From the IMG/VR virus record IMGVR_UViG_2772190763_000002, positions 2,601 to 66,600 of that record: a stretch of 64,000 nucleotides of DNA, one strand, 5' to 3'. How positions within the stretch are numbered: position 1 is the first letter of the stretch; the number at the start of each line of letters is the position of its first letter. The stretch comes from a virus (taxonomy: Duplodnaviria > Caudoviricetes). The translations under genes were made by a program, and so were the position numbers. Under the pieces are notes generated by a model. That model made no database searches and had not been told where the DNA came from. It saw only the letters and a program-made list of their open reading frames with translations. This document shows positions 503 to 5,229 of this stretch, piece by piece.

Positions 503-628
503 TCACTGGTGCGCGAAATGGGCGGCATAGCTCGCCCAGATCGTAAAGCTGTAGATGAAGGCGCCGGCGGCGAGGGCGGCGCAGAGATTGTGGAGATGGT
601 CGCCGATCGTGAGCTCGTCGTCGGTCAT
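503..628 (-). CDS. Small hydrophobic hypothetical protein (41 aa)
   Basis: ATG overlaps TGA of 625..906; MTDDELTIGDHLHNLCAALAAGAFIYSFTIWASYAAHFAHQ, translated by hand. Confidence 0.5.
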   Translation of the reverse strand: MTDDELTIGDHLHNLCAALAAGAFIYSFTIWASYAAHFAHQ

Positions 629-1444: not shown

Positions 1445-2176
1445 TTAGCTCTCGCCGCTACCTACGATTCGATGAACCCTAGCGACCATCTTTAGCGGGA
1501 TCGAAACGGGTTGTGCTGGATTGAATTGGAATAGCTCCAAACTATCATCGTGCCAGGCAATGAATTGCTTTATATACGCGCCCTCTGGATTGTTCTCGTC
1601 TTCTCCGATCTGAACGACACAAAAGTCCTTTTCCTTCAATGGCTTGTATGGATGAACGTAAACCAACTCACCTGGATAGTACCTCGGTATCATCGAGGTG
1701 CCGTGAACATAAACCGCATAGCCTCCCTCGATCGTTCCCAAATCAGGATGAGCCGGCACCCAATCAGTTGTTTCGTTTACCATTATCAGTCGATCCGGGT
1801 CTCCCGCAGCCGCCCAGCCGTGCACAGGCACCATCCCCGCCCGTTCGGTATTTTTTTGACGCACCATAATATTAACTCCACTAGCTGCTTTCGACGCTGT
1901 GGAAGAAGATAGGGCGCGCATCTTGATGCGTCCCTTAATTTTGCTCGGTTTCTTCTCATCGATGGCGTCCAGATCCATCATTGCGTCAGCTTCATTCAAG
2001 GGAATGCCAAATCCGTTGGCGTATACCTCCCAATCATTCGGACGAGTCGTTTCGCCGCGCTCGACCTTGCCAAACGCGGCACGCTCGACGCCAATGTAAT
2101 CGGCGGCCGCCTCTTGCGACATTTGACGCGCCTGACGCTCAACTTTCAACCGATCACCAAATCGAGACATCTTCAT
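1445..2176 (-). CDS. CI-like repressor (XRE HTH + S24 peptidase domain)
   Basis: N-terminal HTH (MSQEAAADYIGVERAAFGKVERG); S24 motif VHGTSMIPRYYPGELVYV and YIKQF; AAGD cleavage-like site. Confidence 0.9.
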   Translation of the reverse strand: MKMSRFGDRLKVERQARQMSQEAAADYIGVERAAFGKVERGETTRPNDWEVYANGFGIPLNEADAMMDLDAIDEKKPSKIKGRIKMRALSSSTASKAASGVNIMVRQKNTERAGMVPVHGWAAAGDPDRLIMVNETTDWVPAHPDLGTIEGGYAVYVHGTSMIPRYYPGELVYVHPYKPLKEKDFCVVQIGEDENNPEGAYIKQFIAWHDDSLELFQFNPAQPVSIPLKMVARVHRIVGSGES

Positions 2177-2198: not shown

Positions 2199-2284
2199 CG
2201 CTACTATATACCATAAAAAAATAGTTGCGTGTTGCTACTTTTTTGTTGACTCAAAAGTAGCGAAAGGCGTATACAAAAGTTGCA
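2199..2284 (+). promoter_or_regulatory. Rightward promoter/operator region driving the RAMP-array module
   Basis: TTGACT 2246-2251, TATACA 2270-2275; CGCTACT 2199, TGCTACTTT 2233, AAAGTAGCG 2254, AAAGTTGCA 2276 (same motif as at 1395-1437). Confidence 0.6.
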
Positions 2285-2502
2285 AGAGTGAACCGAGGCC
2301 ATACAAAAGGCGTAGGGGATTTAGAACCAAAGACTTTTCATTCACGCAATATTAGAACTGCGATTTTTTCAGCGACATTTTATCGAGGCAACCATTTGAG
2401 GAGTTCAAGCATGCGGCGAAATAAAAGGAAAAACCCTCCCAGAAGAGCAGTAGCGCCGAAAGGCGCTGGTCCTCCCAGAAGAACGCCGGGGCGTCATGCC
2501 CC

Positions 2503-2636
2503 GGCTCCTCAGACCAGACGCCTTTCGAGGCGTGCGGTGTGGGGAGCCACAAACACCGTTACGCTCCGCATGGCACCAATTCGCCCCGTTTCGTAACGCA
2601 TGACTACGTTCCGACCCGCAAGACAACGCAACGACC
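2503..2636 (+). ncRNA. Hairpin + pentamer-tract unit 0 (putative guide-type RNA upstream of RAMP gene)
   Basis: Stem GGCTCCTC...ACGCCT-TTCG-AGGCGT...GGGGAGCC (2503-2548), then 17 in-phase pentamers 2552-2636, 10 of which start CGC/CGT. Confidence 0.75.
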
Positions 2637-2661
2637 TTTCATCACCATAGAGGAGACTAAC

Positions 2662-3258
2662 ATGGATTTTTCCGTCGCAACCGTAACTCTCAGAAGTTTT
2701 TCCCCCTACAGCCAGAGCAAGCAACACGACGAGCCGTCGCTCAAGGGCGAAGGCAAGGGGGACTACGACAAGCGCACCTGGAAAGCCAAGGCGCACATCA
2801 CCAAGGACGGCACGCTCGGCATTCCAGCCGCGTCTATGACGCAGGCCATCGCCGAAGCCGCGAAATATTCCAAGAAGCAAATCCCAGGCCAGGGTAAGGC
2901 AACATGGACCGCCAAATTCAAGAGCGGTATCATGCTCGTCGATAGCTTCATCGACACAGGCATCATTCTCAAAGACGCCGACTTCGTCGACATCATGTGC
3001 GACGCTCAGGGCAAGACGGGCTCCGCCGTCAGCAGCCGCGTACCGCGCCGCTTCCCCCAGGTTCCTGAATGGTCCGCCACCTTCCAAGTCTGGATCCTCG
3101 ATCCCATCATCACCGAAGAAATCTTCCGAGAAATGGTCGAGCTTGCCGGCATGTTCATCGGGATCGGCCGCTGGCGTCCAGTCATGAACGGCGGGATGAA
3201 CGGTCGCTTCATCATCGACAAGCTTAAATGGGAAGATAACCGCAAGTTTGCGGCATAG
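2662..3258 (+). CDS. Stand-alone RAMP/Cas7-like protein (Vipr-like), 198 aa
   Basis: GAGGAG RBS then MDFSVATVTLRSFSP (first RRM strand), LGIPAASMTQAIAEAA (RAMP IP-S-helix motif), RRFPQVPEWSATFQV, C-terminal glycine-rich loop GMFIGIGRWRPVMNGGMNGRF. Confidence 0.8.
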   Translation: MDFSVATVTLRSFSPYSQSKQHDEPSLKGEGKGDYDKRTWKAKAHITKDGTLGIPAASMTQAIAEAAKYSKKQIPGQGKATWTAKFKSGIMLVDSFIDTGIILKDADFVDIMCDAQGKTGSAVSSRVPRRFPQVPEWSATFQVWILDPIITEEIFREMVELAGMFIGIGRWRPVMNGGMNGRFIIDKLKWEDNRKFAA

Positions 3259-3279
3259 GACCACCGCCACCACATCGAC

Positions 3280-4150
3280 ATGCCTTACAAGACCGGCTCT
3301 TACGGGAGCCGGTTCATGGAGGGCATTGCTTTCCACAACGCAGCTCTGCGGCCCGCTACACGTCGCTCCGCATTGTGTCGTATCGCCTCTCAACGCAAGG
3401 AATACCAATGACAATCGTTGCCCAACATTATCAGCCAAGAAGACCGATAGTGGTGGGCAACCACCAACGCTGTATTGCAGCGCCACTTAGGGCCACGCGC
3501 CACGCCGTCCCGTTATGCACCTCAACGTTTTCTAGCTTGGTCGGCTCTTTCGAGAGCCGCCTTGTGGTGGGAAACTGCCAAACTTCGCGGCTAGCCGCAT
3601 CGCGCCACCCCGCGTCGCAACGCAATGCAAGTCATCTCAACGAATACCAAACTCAGCAGCAACCGCATTCGTGCGGTTTTTGGTGGGCTTGTCCTGCCGA
3701 CCGCGATCCGCAGCTCCGCGCCGCGCTACACCTGGCTCCGCCGCTTATATCAGCTTCTCGCACCTCAACGAATTACGCTACCCAGCGTCGTCGGCCTTCG
3801 GGCCGAGTGCGGTGGGTATCTCACCAAATGCCGTCCCGCACGGCCGCGTCGCGCGTATTGCCGTTGCGCAACGCCGCGCACCTCTTCACATCTCAACGAA
3901 TACCTGCCAAGCGCCGGTTGCCTTCGGGCAACGTGCGGTTCGCAGGAACCACCAATATCACGCACAGCGACAACACGCTGCGCCGCGCATCGCACCGTCT
4001 CTCAACTCATCTCAACGGCCGCCCTTCGGGGCGGCATCCCCAAGCTTTCATTACGGAAGGTTTCGGGATGCCGTCACTGGTATCATTTCGCTCCATAGCG
4101 CGCTGCTGCACGCCACAGCGAACCGTTACGCGCCACATCTCAACGCACCT
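3280..4150 (+). repeat. Array of 7 non-coding units (stem-loop + 11-13 CGY-NN-type pentamers closing with CTCAACG), period 115-132 nt; putative guide RNAs
   Basis: CTCAACG at 3389, 3521, 3636, 3764, 3892, 4011, 4139; strict 5-nt phase upstream of each; intervening hairpins, four with TTCG loops. Confidence 0.88.
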
Positions 4151-4173
4151 AACCACCACACGAGGAGACAATA

Positions 4174-4707
4174 ATGGCATATGAATCTACGCCAGAAAGA
4201 CTGGCAATAAGAGACAAGCTCGTCGACGCCTTTCTGCAGGTGTCGGTTCAAGGGCTTATCACTCACAACGATATTGCCGGCATCATCGGAAAGAAGACGA
4301 CATCGCCGGAAGCAATCAAGCATTCAGCCTTCCGCATCGCCTCAGATGACCATGGCGTCGTCTTTGAGAATGTGCGCGGCGCTGGCTACCGCCGCATCGC
4401 AGCGGGCGACGTGCACCGTGTCGGCACGCAGACGCGCCACAGCATCCGCGGCAAGGCGAAGCGCGGCAGCAAGAAAATTACCGCCGTCCTGTCCACCAAT
4501 TCCAACAGCATGACGAACAGCGAGCGCATCCGCGCCTACGCAGAAGTCGGCATTCTCGGAATGATCCGAATGGCGGCAGGCCACAACTCGGCAGAGAAGG
4601 CGTACCGCGAAGCCGAGCGCCAGCAGGAGAAGCGTCAGAAGCCGCCGACGCAGGAAGAGATATCGCGTGCCGTGTTGCGCGTCATCGAGGGCGGCAAGGC
4701 CGCTTAA
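4174..4707 (+). CDS. Hypothetical basic protein, possible winged-HTH; candidate accessory gene of RAMP-array module
   Basis: 177 aa, GAGGAG RBS directly after array, ITHNDIAGIIG...FENVRGAGYRRI. Confidence 0.75.
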   Translation: MAYESTPERLAIRDKLVDAFLQVSVQGLITHNDIAGIIGKKTTSPEAIKHSAFRIASDDHGVVFENVRGAGYRRIAAGDVHRVGTQTRHSIRGKAKRGSKKITAVLSTNSNSMTNSERIRAYAEVGILGMIRMAAGHNSAEKAYREAERQQEKRQKPPTQEEISRAVLRVIEGGKAA

Positions 4708-4734: not shown

Positions 4735-5229
4735 ATGAGACACAATAAATTCGAACGTGAAAAATACGGCATCAGCGTCGAACTGATGTCAAGAATGTGT
4801 GGCCTTAGCACATCCCGCATCAAGACCGTCGAGGACGCATATCTCGATCTTCTAAGCCGCGGAGTTCCAGAGGACAGGCTAAAGGCTACGGCCGACAGTG
4901 AACGAATGCTCGCCGTTGTTGATGAAATTAAGGCGCAACAGGACAAGACAGTTGAGGCGTTGCTTGGAACGCTGGTGGCGCGCGGAATTGATGTTTCGCT
5001 GACCAATATACACCACGCAGGACACGGCAGCGGCTATCAGGCTGAACTGTCGATGGGCGATGCCTTCGGAAAACGCCTCTCATCAATCGGTCGCGGTAGG
5101 GCGCAACTATCTGCGCTGATGTCATCTATTGATGTCATGCGGGGAGTTGTTGGCGTGGTTGCGCCGCTCTTCCCTGCCGTTGAGCCAAATATGGATCCGA
5201 AGACGGCAAAAGAGCGGCCGATCGCTTAG
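4735..5229 (+). CDS. Hypothetical protein with N-terminal HTH-like segment
   Basis: 164 aa, AAGGAG RBS; YGISVELMSRMCGLSTSRIKTVE. Confidence 0.7.
   Translation: MRHNKFEREKYGISVELMSRMCGLSTSRIKTVEDAYLDLLSRGVPEDRLKATADSERMLAVVDEIKAQQDKTVEALLGTLVARGIDVSLTNIHHAGHGSGYQAELSMGDAFGKRLSSIGRGRAQLSALMSSIDVMRGVVGVVAPLFPAVEPNMDPKTAKERPIA

What the first reader, a model, noticed from the sequence alone, without database searches (positions are those of the whole stretch)
2503..4150. Candidate RNA-guided system: lone RAMP/Cas7-like gene flanked by an array of hairpin + pentamer-code RNAs
Seen: a 198-aa gene (2662-3258) with RAMP/Cas7-like hallmarks lies between one upstream and seven downstream non-coding units. 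Each unit is a ~40-55 nt stem-loop followed by an in-phase run of pentamers with a semi-constant triplet (mostly CGC/CGT, also CAC, CTC, TGC) and a freely variable dinucleotide. TTCG loops include TCGGCC-TTCG-GGCCGA, GTTGCC-TTCG-GGCAAC and GCCGCCC-TTCG-GGGCGGC. Downstream tracts close with CTCAACG (3389, 3521, 3636, 3764, 3892, 4011, 4139). No cas1/cas2/cas3/cas6 and no identical direct repeats are present. Known: Cas7-family RAMPs polymerise along a guide RNA with a fixed nucleotide step. Inference: one protomer binds each 5-nt step, gripping the triplet and presenting NN for pairing, giving a non-contiguous guide; hairpins delimit individual RNAs. From memory (unverified here) this matches the recently reported phage VIPR architecture (RAMP protein + GGY/NN RNAs), but the constant triplet here is CGY, so it would be a distinct variant.
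Basis: partly seen in the sequence, partly recalled or inferred. Interest (0 to 1): 0.96.

Follow-up and report, generated by a model that had tools for sequence, protein, structure and literature searches.

The report
Rhizobium provirus VIPR guide-RNA locus
A temperate phage of rhizobia carries a copy of the recently published VIPR system (a small Cas7-like protein plus eight guide RNAs built of five-letter repeats), and one guide appears aimed at the immunity repressor gene of rival phages.

Summary
It is already in print: VIPR, three 2026 bioRxiv preprints.

- **Protein.** Gene 2662-3258 encodes a RAMP/Cas7-fold protein. It is homologous to the solved SUSP1 Vipr (PDB 36pp) and falls in the same PHROG family.
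- **RNA units.** One upstream and seven downstream units flank the gene. Each has a leader hairpin, an in-phase C-[G/T/A]-Y-NN pentamer tract and a CTCAACG end. They lie on the gene's strand, as in SUSP1.
- **Relatives.** The same gene-plus-array layout occurs in 9 of 9 genome loci and 72 of 72 IMG/VR loci. The NN pairs are scrambled even next to a 97%-identical protein.
- **Accessory gene.** The next gene (4174-4707) is a distant Vap1 relative.
- **Element.** It is a complete provirus, and the locus sits beside its cI-type repressor.
- **Predicted target (new here).** Under the published 1-nt-skip rule, the upstream guide matches 20-22 of 24 read bases in the C-repressor genes of phage 16-3 and three relatives. 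Every skipped base falls on a codon's third position. The other seven guides have no target found.
- **Weaker lead.** The constant triplet tracks Vipr G-loop and thumb residues (D: GG-; R: mostly CGC; Q: CAC). This is not statistically secure.

This scan has already seen CGY-type VIPR in three other genomes.

The parts
1445..2176 (-). cI-type repressor of the provirus (HTH + S24 peptidase), transcribed divergently from the VIPR operon. Context only. It lacks the motif that guide 0 reads.
   Evidence: Pfam Peptidase_S24 2.3e-9, HTH_31 1.6e-8. phrog_4 8.8e-25. Best guide-0 match anywhere in the 66.6-kb record is 16 of 26.
2503..2548 (+). Leader: extended hairpin ahead of guide 0.
   Evidence: MFE fold of 2503-2640 pairs 2503-2548; z -3.1; 0 of 200 shuffles fold as well. 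The same structure appears in 6 units, 15 pairs, 12 of them with a compensatory change.
2557..2636 (+). vrRNA 0: 12 variable C-G-Y-NN units (2557-2616), then four conserved units (2617-2636) that resemble the tail and run up to the vipr ribosome-binding site.
   Evidence: The unit before the tail is the same in L001. Predicted target is the C-repressor genes of 16-3-type phages.
2662..3258 (+). vipr: 198-aa RAMP/Cas7-fold protein, G-loop GIGRWRP, thumb motif RVPRRFP.
   Evidence: AF2 pLDDT 85, pTM 0.82. Foldseek and VIA-align to Cas7/Csm3. Homology to SUSP1 Vipr. phrog_4652.
3259..3395 (+). vrRNA unit 1: hairpin 3294-3311, tract 3339-3388 (10 units), end motif at 3389.
3396..3527 (+). vrRNA unit 2: long hairpin 3417-3461, tract 3471-3520, end motif at 3521.
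3528..3642 (+). vrRNA unit 3: hairpin 3542-3559, tract 3586-3635, end motif at 3636.
3643..3770 (+). vrRNA unit 4: hairpin about 3661-3678, tract 3694-3763 (14 units), end motif at 3764.
3771..3898 (+). vrRNA unit 5: extended TTCG hairpin 3779-3818, tract 3832-3891 (12 units), end motif at 3892.
3899..4017 (+). vrRNA unit 6: extended TTCG hairpin 3903-3946, tract 3956-4000, doubled end motif at 4001 and 4011.
4018..4145 (+). vrRNA unit 7: two hairpins (4018-4036, 4032-4073), tract 4089-4138, end motif at 4139, then the ribosome-binding site of the next gene.
4174..4707 (+). vap1-like accessory gene, 177 aa. The model shows an N-terminal helix-strand-helix-helix-strand-strand unit (winged-helix-like, with a GxGYRR wing) followed by long helices.
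   Evidence: Conserved after the array in 8 genome loci. An ORF matching its profile is found in 61 of 72 IMG/VR loci. hhalign to SUSP1 Vap1: probability 64%, E 6.6e-5. phrog_5926 E 0.046, against 1.1e-75 for SUSP1 Vap1. AF2 pLDDT 82. Foldseek: no hit at E<=1e-3.

Best explanation
This is a VIPR locus (Viral Interference Programmable Repeat) of a complete temperate Rhizobium provirus.

**Proposed mechanism**
1. The operon leaves the divergent promoter region opposite the phage's cI-type repressor. It reads vrRNA0, vipr, vrRNA1-7, then a vap1-like gene, all on the + strand.
2. Each vrRNA consists of a leader hairpin, 9-14 pentamers C-[G/T/A]-Y-N-N, and a short conserved CTCAACG end.
3. By homology with the solved SUSP1 complex, Vipr protomers polymerise one per pentamer. 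They bury the constant triplet and present the NN pairs.
4. The NN pairs read double-stranded DNA with one target base skipped between pairs. The complex silences transcription of the bound gene.
5. The first guide is predicted to bind the codons for the conserved motif GEYIFNG..(L/V)DY in the C (immunity) repressor gene of 16-3-type rhizobiophages and prophages. The phage's own repressor lacks this motif. The phage would thereby interfere with a rival's lysogeny switch.

**Shown here:** the fold, the homology, the array anatomy, its conservation and NN hypervariability, and the target match.

**Inferred:** transcription and processing, filament formation, DNA binding and silencing, and the biological outcome.
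For: **Protein**
- The best PDB sequence hit is 'SUSP1 Vipr protein' 36pp_D: E 0.046 for the single sequence and 4.4e-4 for the profile.
- The profile finds the vipr genes in the SUSP1 record (E 3e-6) and in Pseudomonas phage LESphi2 (E 4.8e-13). hhalign to SUSP1 Vipr gives 93% probability.
- All three proteins hit phrog_4652: 5.9e-11 (window), 1.4e-96 (SUSP1), 8.5e-66 (LESphi2).

**Strand**
- In SUSP1 and LESphi2 the GGY-NN tracts lie on the vipr coding strand. In SUSP1 each tract is preceded by a hairpin.
- Read on the + strand, position 3 here is a pyrimidine, as the solved Y3 pocket requires, and R172 aligns with the pocket residue R179.

**Arrays in relatives**
- 9 of 9 genome loci and 72 of 72 IMG/VR loci carry pentamer tracts next to the gene.
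- Flagged 40-nt windows make up 8.6% of windows near the gene (13,708 of 160,005). Far from the gene they make up 0.016% (36 of 229,273), and inside it 0 of 38,115.

**NN hypervariability**
- In 5 homologous unit pairs of the window and L001, leaders are 73% identical, constant triplets 58% and NN 30%.
- In L028, whose Vipr is 97% identical, blastn aligns the gene and the region from the array's last units into the next gene, but none of the earlier tracts.

**Accessory gene:**

**Viral context**
- IMG/VR classes the record as a provirus, and CheckV estimates it 100% complete.
- PHROG hits include terminase, portal, major head, tape measure and tail fiber proteins.

**Target of guide 0 under the 1-nt-skip rule**
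- 21 of 26 positions match in each of two Rhizobium prophage repressor genes. None of 100 shuffled guides reaches this.
- In 173 Rhizobium genomes there are 2 hits at <=3 mismatches in 24, both in that gene family, and 0 for the reversed control.
- Real DNA of named phages: RHph_X2_25 22/24, phage 16-3 21/24, NV1.1.1 21/24, RHph_TM3_3_14B 20/24. All skipped bases fall on codon position 3.
- Of 128 repressor homologs, 90 allow >=20 of 24. The best of 200 shuffled guides reaches 19.
- Skip lengths 0 and 2 give nothing above shuffles, and skip 3 finds only the guides themselves.
Against: - There are no expression data. No RNA run holding this DNA was listed.
- Seven of the eight guides have no target above shuffled controls in anything searched.
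- For guide 0, the genus-wide count alone is weak: 2 hits against my own estimate of roughly 0.5 expected by chance. The two hits are homologous genes, so they are not independent.
- Two SUSP1 residues whose alanine mutants abolish silencing are not conserved. D177 aligns with R170 and R138 with F131. Triplet recognition must therefore differ in detail.
- The first constant letter is C, not G.
- There is no long pseudoknot tail as in SUSP1, only a 7-12-nt conserved end.
- The Vap1 relationship is weak: hhalign probability 64%, phrog_5926 E 0.046, and no Foldseek match at E<=1e-3.
- The Foldseek library did not return a Vipr structure, so no direct fold-to-fold comparison with 36pp was made.
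- No sigma-70-like promoter or terminator separates the units, so how single vrRNAs arise is unknown.
Confidence: 0.87

Rival explanations
1. A VIPR-derived locus that no longer works as a programmable DNA silencer, or never did. For example, the protein could bind its own polycistronic transcript, whose tracts run into the ribosome-binding sites of vipr and vap, to autoregulate the operon. Or the guides could act on RNA rather than DNA.
For: Guide 0 and unit 7 end 13-30 nt before the next gene's ribosome-binding site. Seven of eight guides have no target found. The key SUSP1 contact residues D177 and R138 are replaced. The close relative L001 has a frameshifted vipr yet keeps its array.
Against: The NN pairs are fully scrambled between near-identical loci while leaders and triplets are kept. 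This fits guides under diversifying selection, not a fixed autoregulatory site. Guide 0 matches a rival repressor gene family in codon register. The family is large and intact: 2497 representative clusters at E<=1e-3.
Confidence: 0.07
2. The RNAs are made from the minus strand. Units would then read 5'-CGTTGAG, NN-R-[C/A/T]-G pentamers, 3' hairpins, antisense to the operon.
For: On the minus strand the hairpins would lie 3' of each tract, like the structured 3' tail of SUSP1 vrRNAs. The target search cannot tell the strands apart, because the NN-x pattern is symmetric under reverse complement.
Against: In SUSP1 and LESphi2 the tracts are on the vipr coding strand, and in SUSP1 a hairpin precedes each tract there too. 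A minus-strand reading would put a purine in the conserved pyrimidine pocket. Relatives with single guides have no hairpins at all, and their tracts abut the ribosome-binding sites of + strand genes (L009 and L025). The two minus-strand unit folds tested are no better than shuffles (z -0.55 and 0.05).
Confidence: 0.04
3. The 915-bp stretch is not RNA genes. It would be either a protein-coding region (ORF 3375-4184, 269 aa) or a DNA-level repeat such as iterons or operator arrays.
For: A 269-aa ORF spans the region. C-rich pentamers carry few stop codons.
Against: Periodicity is 5, not 3. The ORF is not kept in L001 or L028, where the tracts differ entirely. The leader hairpins show compensatory changes. 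The adjacent protein is homologous to an RNA-binding protein solved with exactly this kind of RNA.
Confidence: 0.01

Closest known systems
Type II VIPR of Escherichia phage SUSP1 (Vipr, Vap1, four vrRNAs; PDB 36pp; bioRxiv 10.64898/2026.04.26.720920, 10.64898/2026.04.26.720927 and 10.64898/2026.10.15.759431)
   Same: - Small single-RRM RAMP protein of about 195-200 aa in the same PHROG family (phrog_4652).
- Homologous thumb-to-G-loop region.
- One guide upstream and an array downstream, on the gene's strand.
- Hairpin ahead of each tract; 9-14 pentamers with a constant triplet and free NN.
- Distant Vap1 homolog present.
- (Pro)viral location.
- A predicted target inside a rival element's coding gene, with skipped bases on wobble positions.
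   Different: - The constant triplet is C-[G/T/A]-Y rather than G-G-Y.
- The G-loop has R where SUSP1 has D177, and the thumb has F where SUSP1 has R138.
- The array lies between vipr and vap rather than after vap.
- There are seven downstream guides instead of three.
- The end is a short CTCAACG instead of a roughly 40-nt pseudoknot tail.
- The host phage is temperate and infects an alphaproteobacterium.
- Which of the paper's seven types this clade belongs to could not be checked, because the supplements were not seen.
VIPR of Pseudomonas prophages (the paper's P. fulva clade; here Pseudomonas phage LESphi2, OQ594955)
   Same: - Closer in sequence than SUSP1 (profile E 4.8e-13).
- Sits next to cI/cro in a temperate phage.
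- The paper reports that this clade's guides mainly target regulators of the lysis-lysogeny switch in resident prophages. Guide 0 is predicted to target the same class.
   Different: LESphi2 uses GGY-NN with a D-type G-loop (GLCDYRP). Its vap follows vipr directly.
CRISPR Cas7-family backbone subunits (type VII Cas7, Csm3, Cmr4)
   Different: There is no repeat-spacer array, no Cas1 and no other effector subunits. The step is 5 nt with three buried bases, not 6 nt with one. The guide is non-contiguous.

Membership tests
VIPR system | Sequence homology to an experimentally validated Vipr. | tested here: met
   PDB 36pp_D 'SUSP1 Vipr protein', profile E 4.4e-4. hhalign probability 93.4%, E 2.4e-7, 60 columns. 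phrog_4652 is shared with SUSP1 and LESphi2 Vipr.
VIPR system | Flanking non-coding tandem pentamers: at least 4 units of conserved triplet plus hypervariable NN. | tested here: met
   Eight tracts of 9-14 units. Logo. NN identity is 30% between homologous units of two loci, against 73% for leaders. 81 of 81 related loci have tracts.
VIPR system | The triplet is GGY (YNNGG). | tested here: not met
   Position 1 is C in 79% of pentamers and G in 9%. The paper allows 'a related consensus' and lists YNNNG, NNNGG and NNNNG. Y-NN-C-G fits YNNNG. Relatives with CTC or CAC fit none of the three.
VIPR system | Invariant 3' tail after the tract (a pseudoknot in the SUSP1 clade). | tested here: inconclusive
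   A conserved short end, CTCAACG(C/A), closes 7 of 8 tracts here and the tracts of relatives. No long structured tail was seen. A pseudoknot was not tested.
VIPR system | Accessory vap gene in the operon. | tested here: met
   4174-4707 is conserved after the array. The relation to SUSP1 Vap1 is distant: hhalign E 6.6e-5, probability 64%, shared GxGYR motif; phrog_5926 E 0.046. Weak but consistent.
VIPR system | Minimal locus outside CRISPR-cas, mostly in (pro)viruses. | tested here: met
   Provirus, CheckV 100%, no Cas1. Phage structural and replication genes. No identical direct repeats. Other cas families were not searched.
VIPR system | Guides match natural dsDNA targets under the 1-nt-skip rule (at least 80% of NN positions). 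| tested here: met
   Guide 0 matches 20-22 of 24 positions in four named phage C-repressor genes, with wobble-aligned skips. Shuffled guides reach at most 19. Skips 0 and 2 give no hits. Met for 1 of 8 guides only.
VIPR system | vrRNAs are expressed, co-purify with Vipr, and silence their targets. | not testable with these tools
   No RNA run holding the stretch was listed. This needs bench work.
CRISPR-Cas class 1 | Repeat-spacer array with adaptation or other effector cas genes. | tested here: not met
   No identical repeats. No Cas1. The protein shares only the Cas7 fold.

The most novel reading that the evidence does not exclude
Two linked ideas.

**(1) The constant triplet as a protein-set identity code.**
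- Among 64 distinct Viprs, a D-type G-loop with an R-type thumb goes with GG- (3 of 3).
- A Q-type G-loop goes with C-A-C (8 of 8).
- An R-type G-loop goes mostly with C-G-C (40 of 53).
- The only two ingroup loci whose triplet starts with G have Y in place of the otherwise invariant H22.
- If a few residues set the triplet, VIPR lineages would be mutually orthogonal. That would stop rivals from loading decoy 'solo' guides onto a phage's Vipr, the hijack shown for SUSP1 satellites. It would also give engineers several non-cross-talking VIPR scaffolds.

**(2) Attack on rival immunity repressors.** This provirus would use its promoter-proximal guide to silence the C repressor of 16-3-type prophages, forcing resident rivals out of lysogeny or blocking their establishment. 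Its relative L001 carries a short guide that reads the GELVYVH motif of this phage's own repressor. That suggests reciprocal attack between heteroimmune relatives.
Probability: 0.3. Interest if true: 0.7.

Novelty: new member of a known kind. Interest (0 to 1): 0.42.

Why it matters
VIPR was described only in 2026, and its experiments rest on coliphage SUSP1 and a Pseudomonas prophage.

- **A tractable example.** This locus is a clean, complete example in a temperate phage of nitrogen-fixing rhizobia. It has eight guides and a concrete, testable predicted target: the well-studied C repressor of phage 16-3.
- **A natural panel.** With its roughly 80 relatives it offers closely related Vipr proteins that use different constant triplets (CGC, CTC, CAC, CTT, GGC). 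That is the material needed to work out how the protein recognises the scaffold letters, and whether orthogonal VIPR variants can be built.

Tried and rejected
**Family and expression searches**
- Pfam gave no family for the Vipr protein or for 4735-5229, and only a sub-threshold hit for 4174-4707 (ADP_ribosyl_GH, E 0.1).
- Rfam at the E-value threshold over 2200-4400 gave only a sub-threshold SorX hit at 2432-2511 (24.7 bits against a gathering score of 46.6). I treat it as chance.
- RNA evidence: no RNA holder was listed. One DNA run held a small share (0.06) of the sampled words.

**Targets of guides 1-7**
- Nothing rose above shuffled guides in the 66.6-kb record plus the then-stored loci, in 153 kb around two Rhizobium prophages, or in 687 kb of 72 IMG/VR loci.
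- Exact IMG/VR scans of guides 0, 4 (an 11-unit part), 5, 1 and 7 gave 0 matches each.
- Guide 4 at <=3 mismatches gave 0 hits in 173 Rhizobium genomes and 0 in 2.
- Guides 2, 3 and 6 were not scanned in public collections.

**Is this phage targeted by relatives?**
- For 270 distinct guides from the IMG/VR loci, best hits on this phage have the same mismatch distribution as shuffled guides. Several hits pile up near window 553-559; I suspect a composition effect but did not check it.
- Of 33 guides from L001-L009, 3 exceeded their shuffles by one base, which is no more than marginal.
- The L001 upstream guide matches this phage's repressor at 13 of 16 positions and the G023 repressor at 14 of 16. 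The guide has only 7-8 units, and its score equals the best shuffle. It is suggestive only.

**Triplet and residue covariation**
- The tree gives only 1 well-supported independent contrast (4 on any branch), so no significance can be claimed.
- L027's GAC call rests on short, scattered tracts.

**Other steps**
- The Vap model had no Foldseek match at E<=1e-3. Winged-helix proteins appear only among the weak rows.
- The lag-5 signal at 1176-1226 lies in an ORF, and I see no C-x-Y tract there; taken as chance. The three minus-strand C-x-Y runs (22633, 45556, 62160) have no leader hairpin or exact end motif nearby; likewise taken as chance.
Their type tables and logos (fig. S17, data S4) may already show this clade and its triplet.
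Full report
**What is there.** Window 2503-4173 holds a 198-aa gene (2662-3258, + strand) flanked by non-coding DNA with a strict 5-nt rhythm.
- Identity at lags 5, 10 and 15 is 0.35-0.37 in 3259-4173, against 0.22-0.24 at lags 4 and 6. Inside the gene the lag-5 value is 0.22.
- Of the 40 most 5-periodic 100-nt windows in the 64 kb, 25 fall in 2501-4200.
- Counted back from each of them, the pentamers stay in phase. They read C (79%), G (59%), C/T (81%), then two near-uniform positions.
- There are eight units, one upstream and seven downstream. Each has an extended leader hairpin, a short linker, 9-14 pentamers and the conserved end.
- Six leaders share a 15-pair structure, and 12 of those pairs show a compensatory change.
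- Runs of C-x-Y-NN pentamers on the + strand occur only in 3324-4163 of the whole 66.6-kb record.

**The protein.**
- Pfam finds nothing. PHROGs places the protein in phrog_4652 at E 5.9e-11.
- An AlphaFold2 model built from 40 homologs (pLDDT 85, pTM 0.82) matches CRISPR Cas7-family subunits along its full length.
  - Foldseek: 147 chains at E<=1e-3, led by type VII Cas7 and Csm3.
- The best sequence match in the PDB is 36pp_D, 'SUSP1 Vipr protein': E 0.046 for the single sequence and 4.4e-4 for the profile.
- I fetched phage SUSP1 (KT454805.2; the accession was recalled and the record confirmed it). The family profile finds its vipr gene at E 3e-6, and the vipr gene of Pseudomonas phage LESphi2 at 4.8e-13.
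- hhalign gives 93% probability over the thumb-to-G-loop region.
- SUSP1 and LESphi2 Vipr fall in the same phrog_4652 (1.4e-96 and 8.5e-66).
- The family is large: 697 proteins at E<=1e-3 in the word-indexed search, and 2497 representative clusters in the exhaustive one.

**What is in print.** VIPR is described in three 2026 bioRxiv preprints.
- For 10.64898/2026.04.26.720920 I read the outline, the whole Results, part 1 of 4 of the Methods, and found passages.
- For 10.64898/2026.04.26.720927 I read the outline, two Results sections and found passages.
- For 10.64898/2026.10.15.759431 I read the outline with the abstract and found passages.
- A full-text search for 'vrRNA' reports eight papers and lists six. 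Beyond these three, one preprint mentions it once (seen in the listing only), and two older papers use the string once or five times, judged unrelated from their titles and abstract openings.
- The published picture:
  - A minimal RAMP protein (Vipr) polymerises one protomer per YNNGG repeat of a vrRNA. It buries GGY and presents NN.
  - The NN pairs read dsDNA with one target base skipped.
  - The complex silences transcription.
  - Loci are mostly proviral or viral and usually carry a vap accessory gene.
  - Seven types exist, using 'GGY/NN motifs, or a related consensus'. The methods name NNNGG, YNNNG and NNNNG as alternatives.

**Strand and anatomy compared with SUSP1.**
- In SUSP1 the tracts lie on the vipr coding strand. 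Each is preceded by a hairpin and followed by a tail. LESphi2 has GGY-NN tracts upstream of vipr on the same strand.
- The + strand reading here gives the same order of parts. It also places a pyrimidine where the solved structure has a purine-excluding pocket.
- Differences from SUSP1:
  - The first constant letter is C.
  - The end is a short CTCAACG rather than a 40-nt pseudoknot.
  - The array sits between vipr and the next gene.

**The accessory gene.**
- Gene 4174-4707 is conserved after the array in eight genome loci.
- A matching ORF occurs in 61 of 72 IMG/VR loci. Among the 62 loci with at least 1500 nt of downstream DNA, 45 have it downstream on the same strand.
- It is distantly related to SUSP1 Vap1:
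  - hhalign gives E 6.6e-5 and 64% probability, with a shared GxGYR motif.
  - It scores phrog_5926 at E 0.046, whereas SUSP1 Vap1 scores 1.1e-75 in that family.
- Its model (pLDDT 82) has a winged-helix-like topology followed by long helices. Foldseek gives no match at E<=1e-3.

**Relatives.**
- All 9 loci from species-representative genomes carry the same arrays next to the gene. They are Rhizobium ruizarguesonis, Ancylobacter, and MAGs labelled Hyphomicrobiales, Alphaproteobacteria, Geminicoccaceae, Roseomonas (two), Massilia and Peribacteria. All 72 IMG/VR loci do so too.
- As a control, the tract detector flags 8.6% of windows near the gene, 0.016% far from it and none inside it.
- The NN pairs are hypervariable.
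  - In five homologous unit pairs of the window and L001 (Vipr 84% identical in the best tblastn segment), leaders are 73% identical, triplets 58% and NN 30%.
  - In L028, whose Vipr is 97% identical, the leaders are recognisable but the tracts differ. blastn aligns only the gene and the last part of the region.

**Context.** The record is an IMG/VR provirus that CheckV rates 100% complete. PHROG hits cover helicase, methyltransferase, primase, terminase, portal, major head, tape measure and tail fiber proteins. The VIPR operon starts in the divergent region opposite the cI-type repressor gene at 1445-2176. By analogy with lambdoid phages this suggests early lytic expression. That is an inference.

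**Targets.** I applied the published rule (NN, one skipped base) with shuffled-guide controls.
- Only guide 0 gives a signal. It matches 21 of 26 positions inside the repressor genes of two Rhizobium prophages, and none of 100 shuffles reaches this.
- In 173 Rhizobium genomes, the only two sites with <=3 mismatches in 24 are in that gene family, and the reversed control finds none.
- By my own estimate about 0.5 such sites are expected by chance, so the count alone is weak.
- Read as codons, the guide spells G-E-Y-I-F-N-G-(K/N)-V-(I/M)-(D/E)-Y. Among 128 homologs of these repressors, the 'repressor protein C' family of phage 16-3, the motif GEYIFNG(Q/S)V(L/V)DY is conserved.
  - 29 homologs allow 22 of 24, 28 allow 21 and 33 allow 20.
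  - The best of 200 shuffled guides reaches 19.
- On the real DNA of named phages the match is 22/24 (RHph_X2_25), 21/24 (16-3 and NV1.1.1) and 20/24 (RHph_TM3_3_14B). Every skipped base falls on codon position 3.
- The provirus's own repressor lacks the motif.
- This is the target class reported for the Pseudomonas clade, and the codon-register logic reported for SUSP1.
- The upstream guide of L001 conversely reads G-E-L-V-Y-V-H and matches this phage's repressor at 13 of 16 positions. With 7-8 units this is only suggestive.
- Guides 1-7 have no target in anything I could search.

**A lead on triplet recognition.**
- In SUSP1, G1 is read by H17 and D177, G2 by R138 and W178, and Y3 by a pocket that includes R179. 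Alanine at D177 or R138 abolishes silencing.
- Here D177 aligns with R170 and R138 with F131, while W171 and R172 are kept.
- Counts across 64 distinct Viprs:

| G-loop residue | Triplet | Count |
|---|---|---|
| D (with R in the thumb) | GG- | 3 of 3 |
| Q | CAC | 8 of 8 |
| R | CGC | 40 |
| R | CnC | 4 |
| R | CAC | 3 |
| R | CTC | 2 |
| R | CGA, CTT, GGC | 1 each |

- The two ingroup loci whose triplet starts with G (L087 and L027) have Y for the otherwise invariant H22.
- Only one R/Q contrast sits on well-supported branches, so this is a hypothesis and not a result.
- The words 'covar' and 'types' do not occur in the main text of the structure preprint. Its supplements were not seen.

**Verdict.** This is a genuine, intact-looking VIPR locus, so a new member of a published kind. 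This scan had already noted CGY-type VIPR in three other genomes. It is of moderate interest for two reasons: the concrete 16-3 C-repressor target prediction, and the natural panel of scaffold-letter variants among its relatives.

Noticed in passing
window 2411-2511: The operon leader holds a 12-nt direct repeat (CCTCCCAGAAGA, at 2435 and 2471). Each copy is followed by a GC-rich hairpin, the first with a GAAA loop. The leader overlaps a small arginine-rich ORF that starts at 2411 and has its own GAGGAG site. The arrangement is also present in L001. Its layout recalls boxA/boxB nut sites and an N-like peptide; this is my own association and was not tested. Rfam gives only a sub-threshold SorX hit (E 0.004).
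   Followed up: no
L001 (Rhizobium ruizarguesonis CP171853.1), locus 4001-4593: The vipr gene of this close relative is split by a frameshift near codon 42, giving 58 aa and then a second frame. The array and the vap gene look intact. It could be a decaying locus, a phage living off guides alone, or a sequencing error.
   Followed up: partly
It had no PHROG hit at E<=1e-5.
   Followed up: no
L066 and L073 (IMG/VR loci): Some relatives carry much larger arrays. The detector flags about 1.1-1.5 kb of tract sequence: up to 12 tracts downstream in L066, and 7 upstream plus 7 downstream in L073.
   Followed up: no
L087, L027, L026, L032 (IMG/VR loci): Odd triplets occur inside the R/Q-type clade: GGC (L087), GAC (L027, weak call), CTT (L026) and CGA (L032). 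L087 and L027 both have Y in place of the otherwise invariant H22 of the first beta strand region.
   Followed up: partly
window 3375-4184: A 269-aa open frame runs through the array. It is a by-product of stop-poor C-rich pentamers and would mislead gene callers. Similar spurious frames appear over the arrays of L001, L003 and L007.
   Followed up: partly
window 553-600: Five different guides from unrelated IMG/VR relatives have their best hit on this phage at about 553-559. I suspect a composition effect, because shuffled guides score equally overall, but I did not examine it.
   Followed up: no
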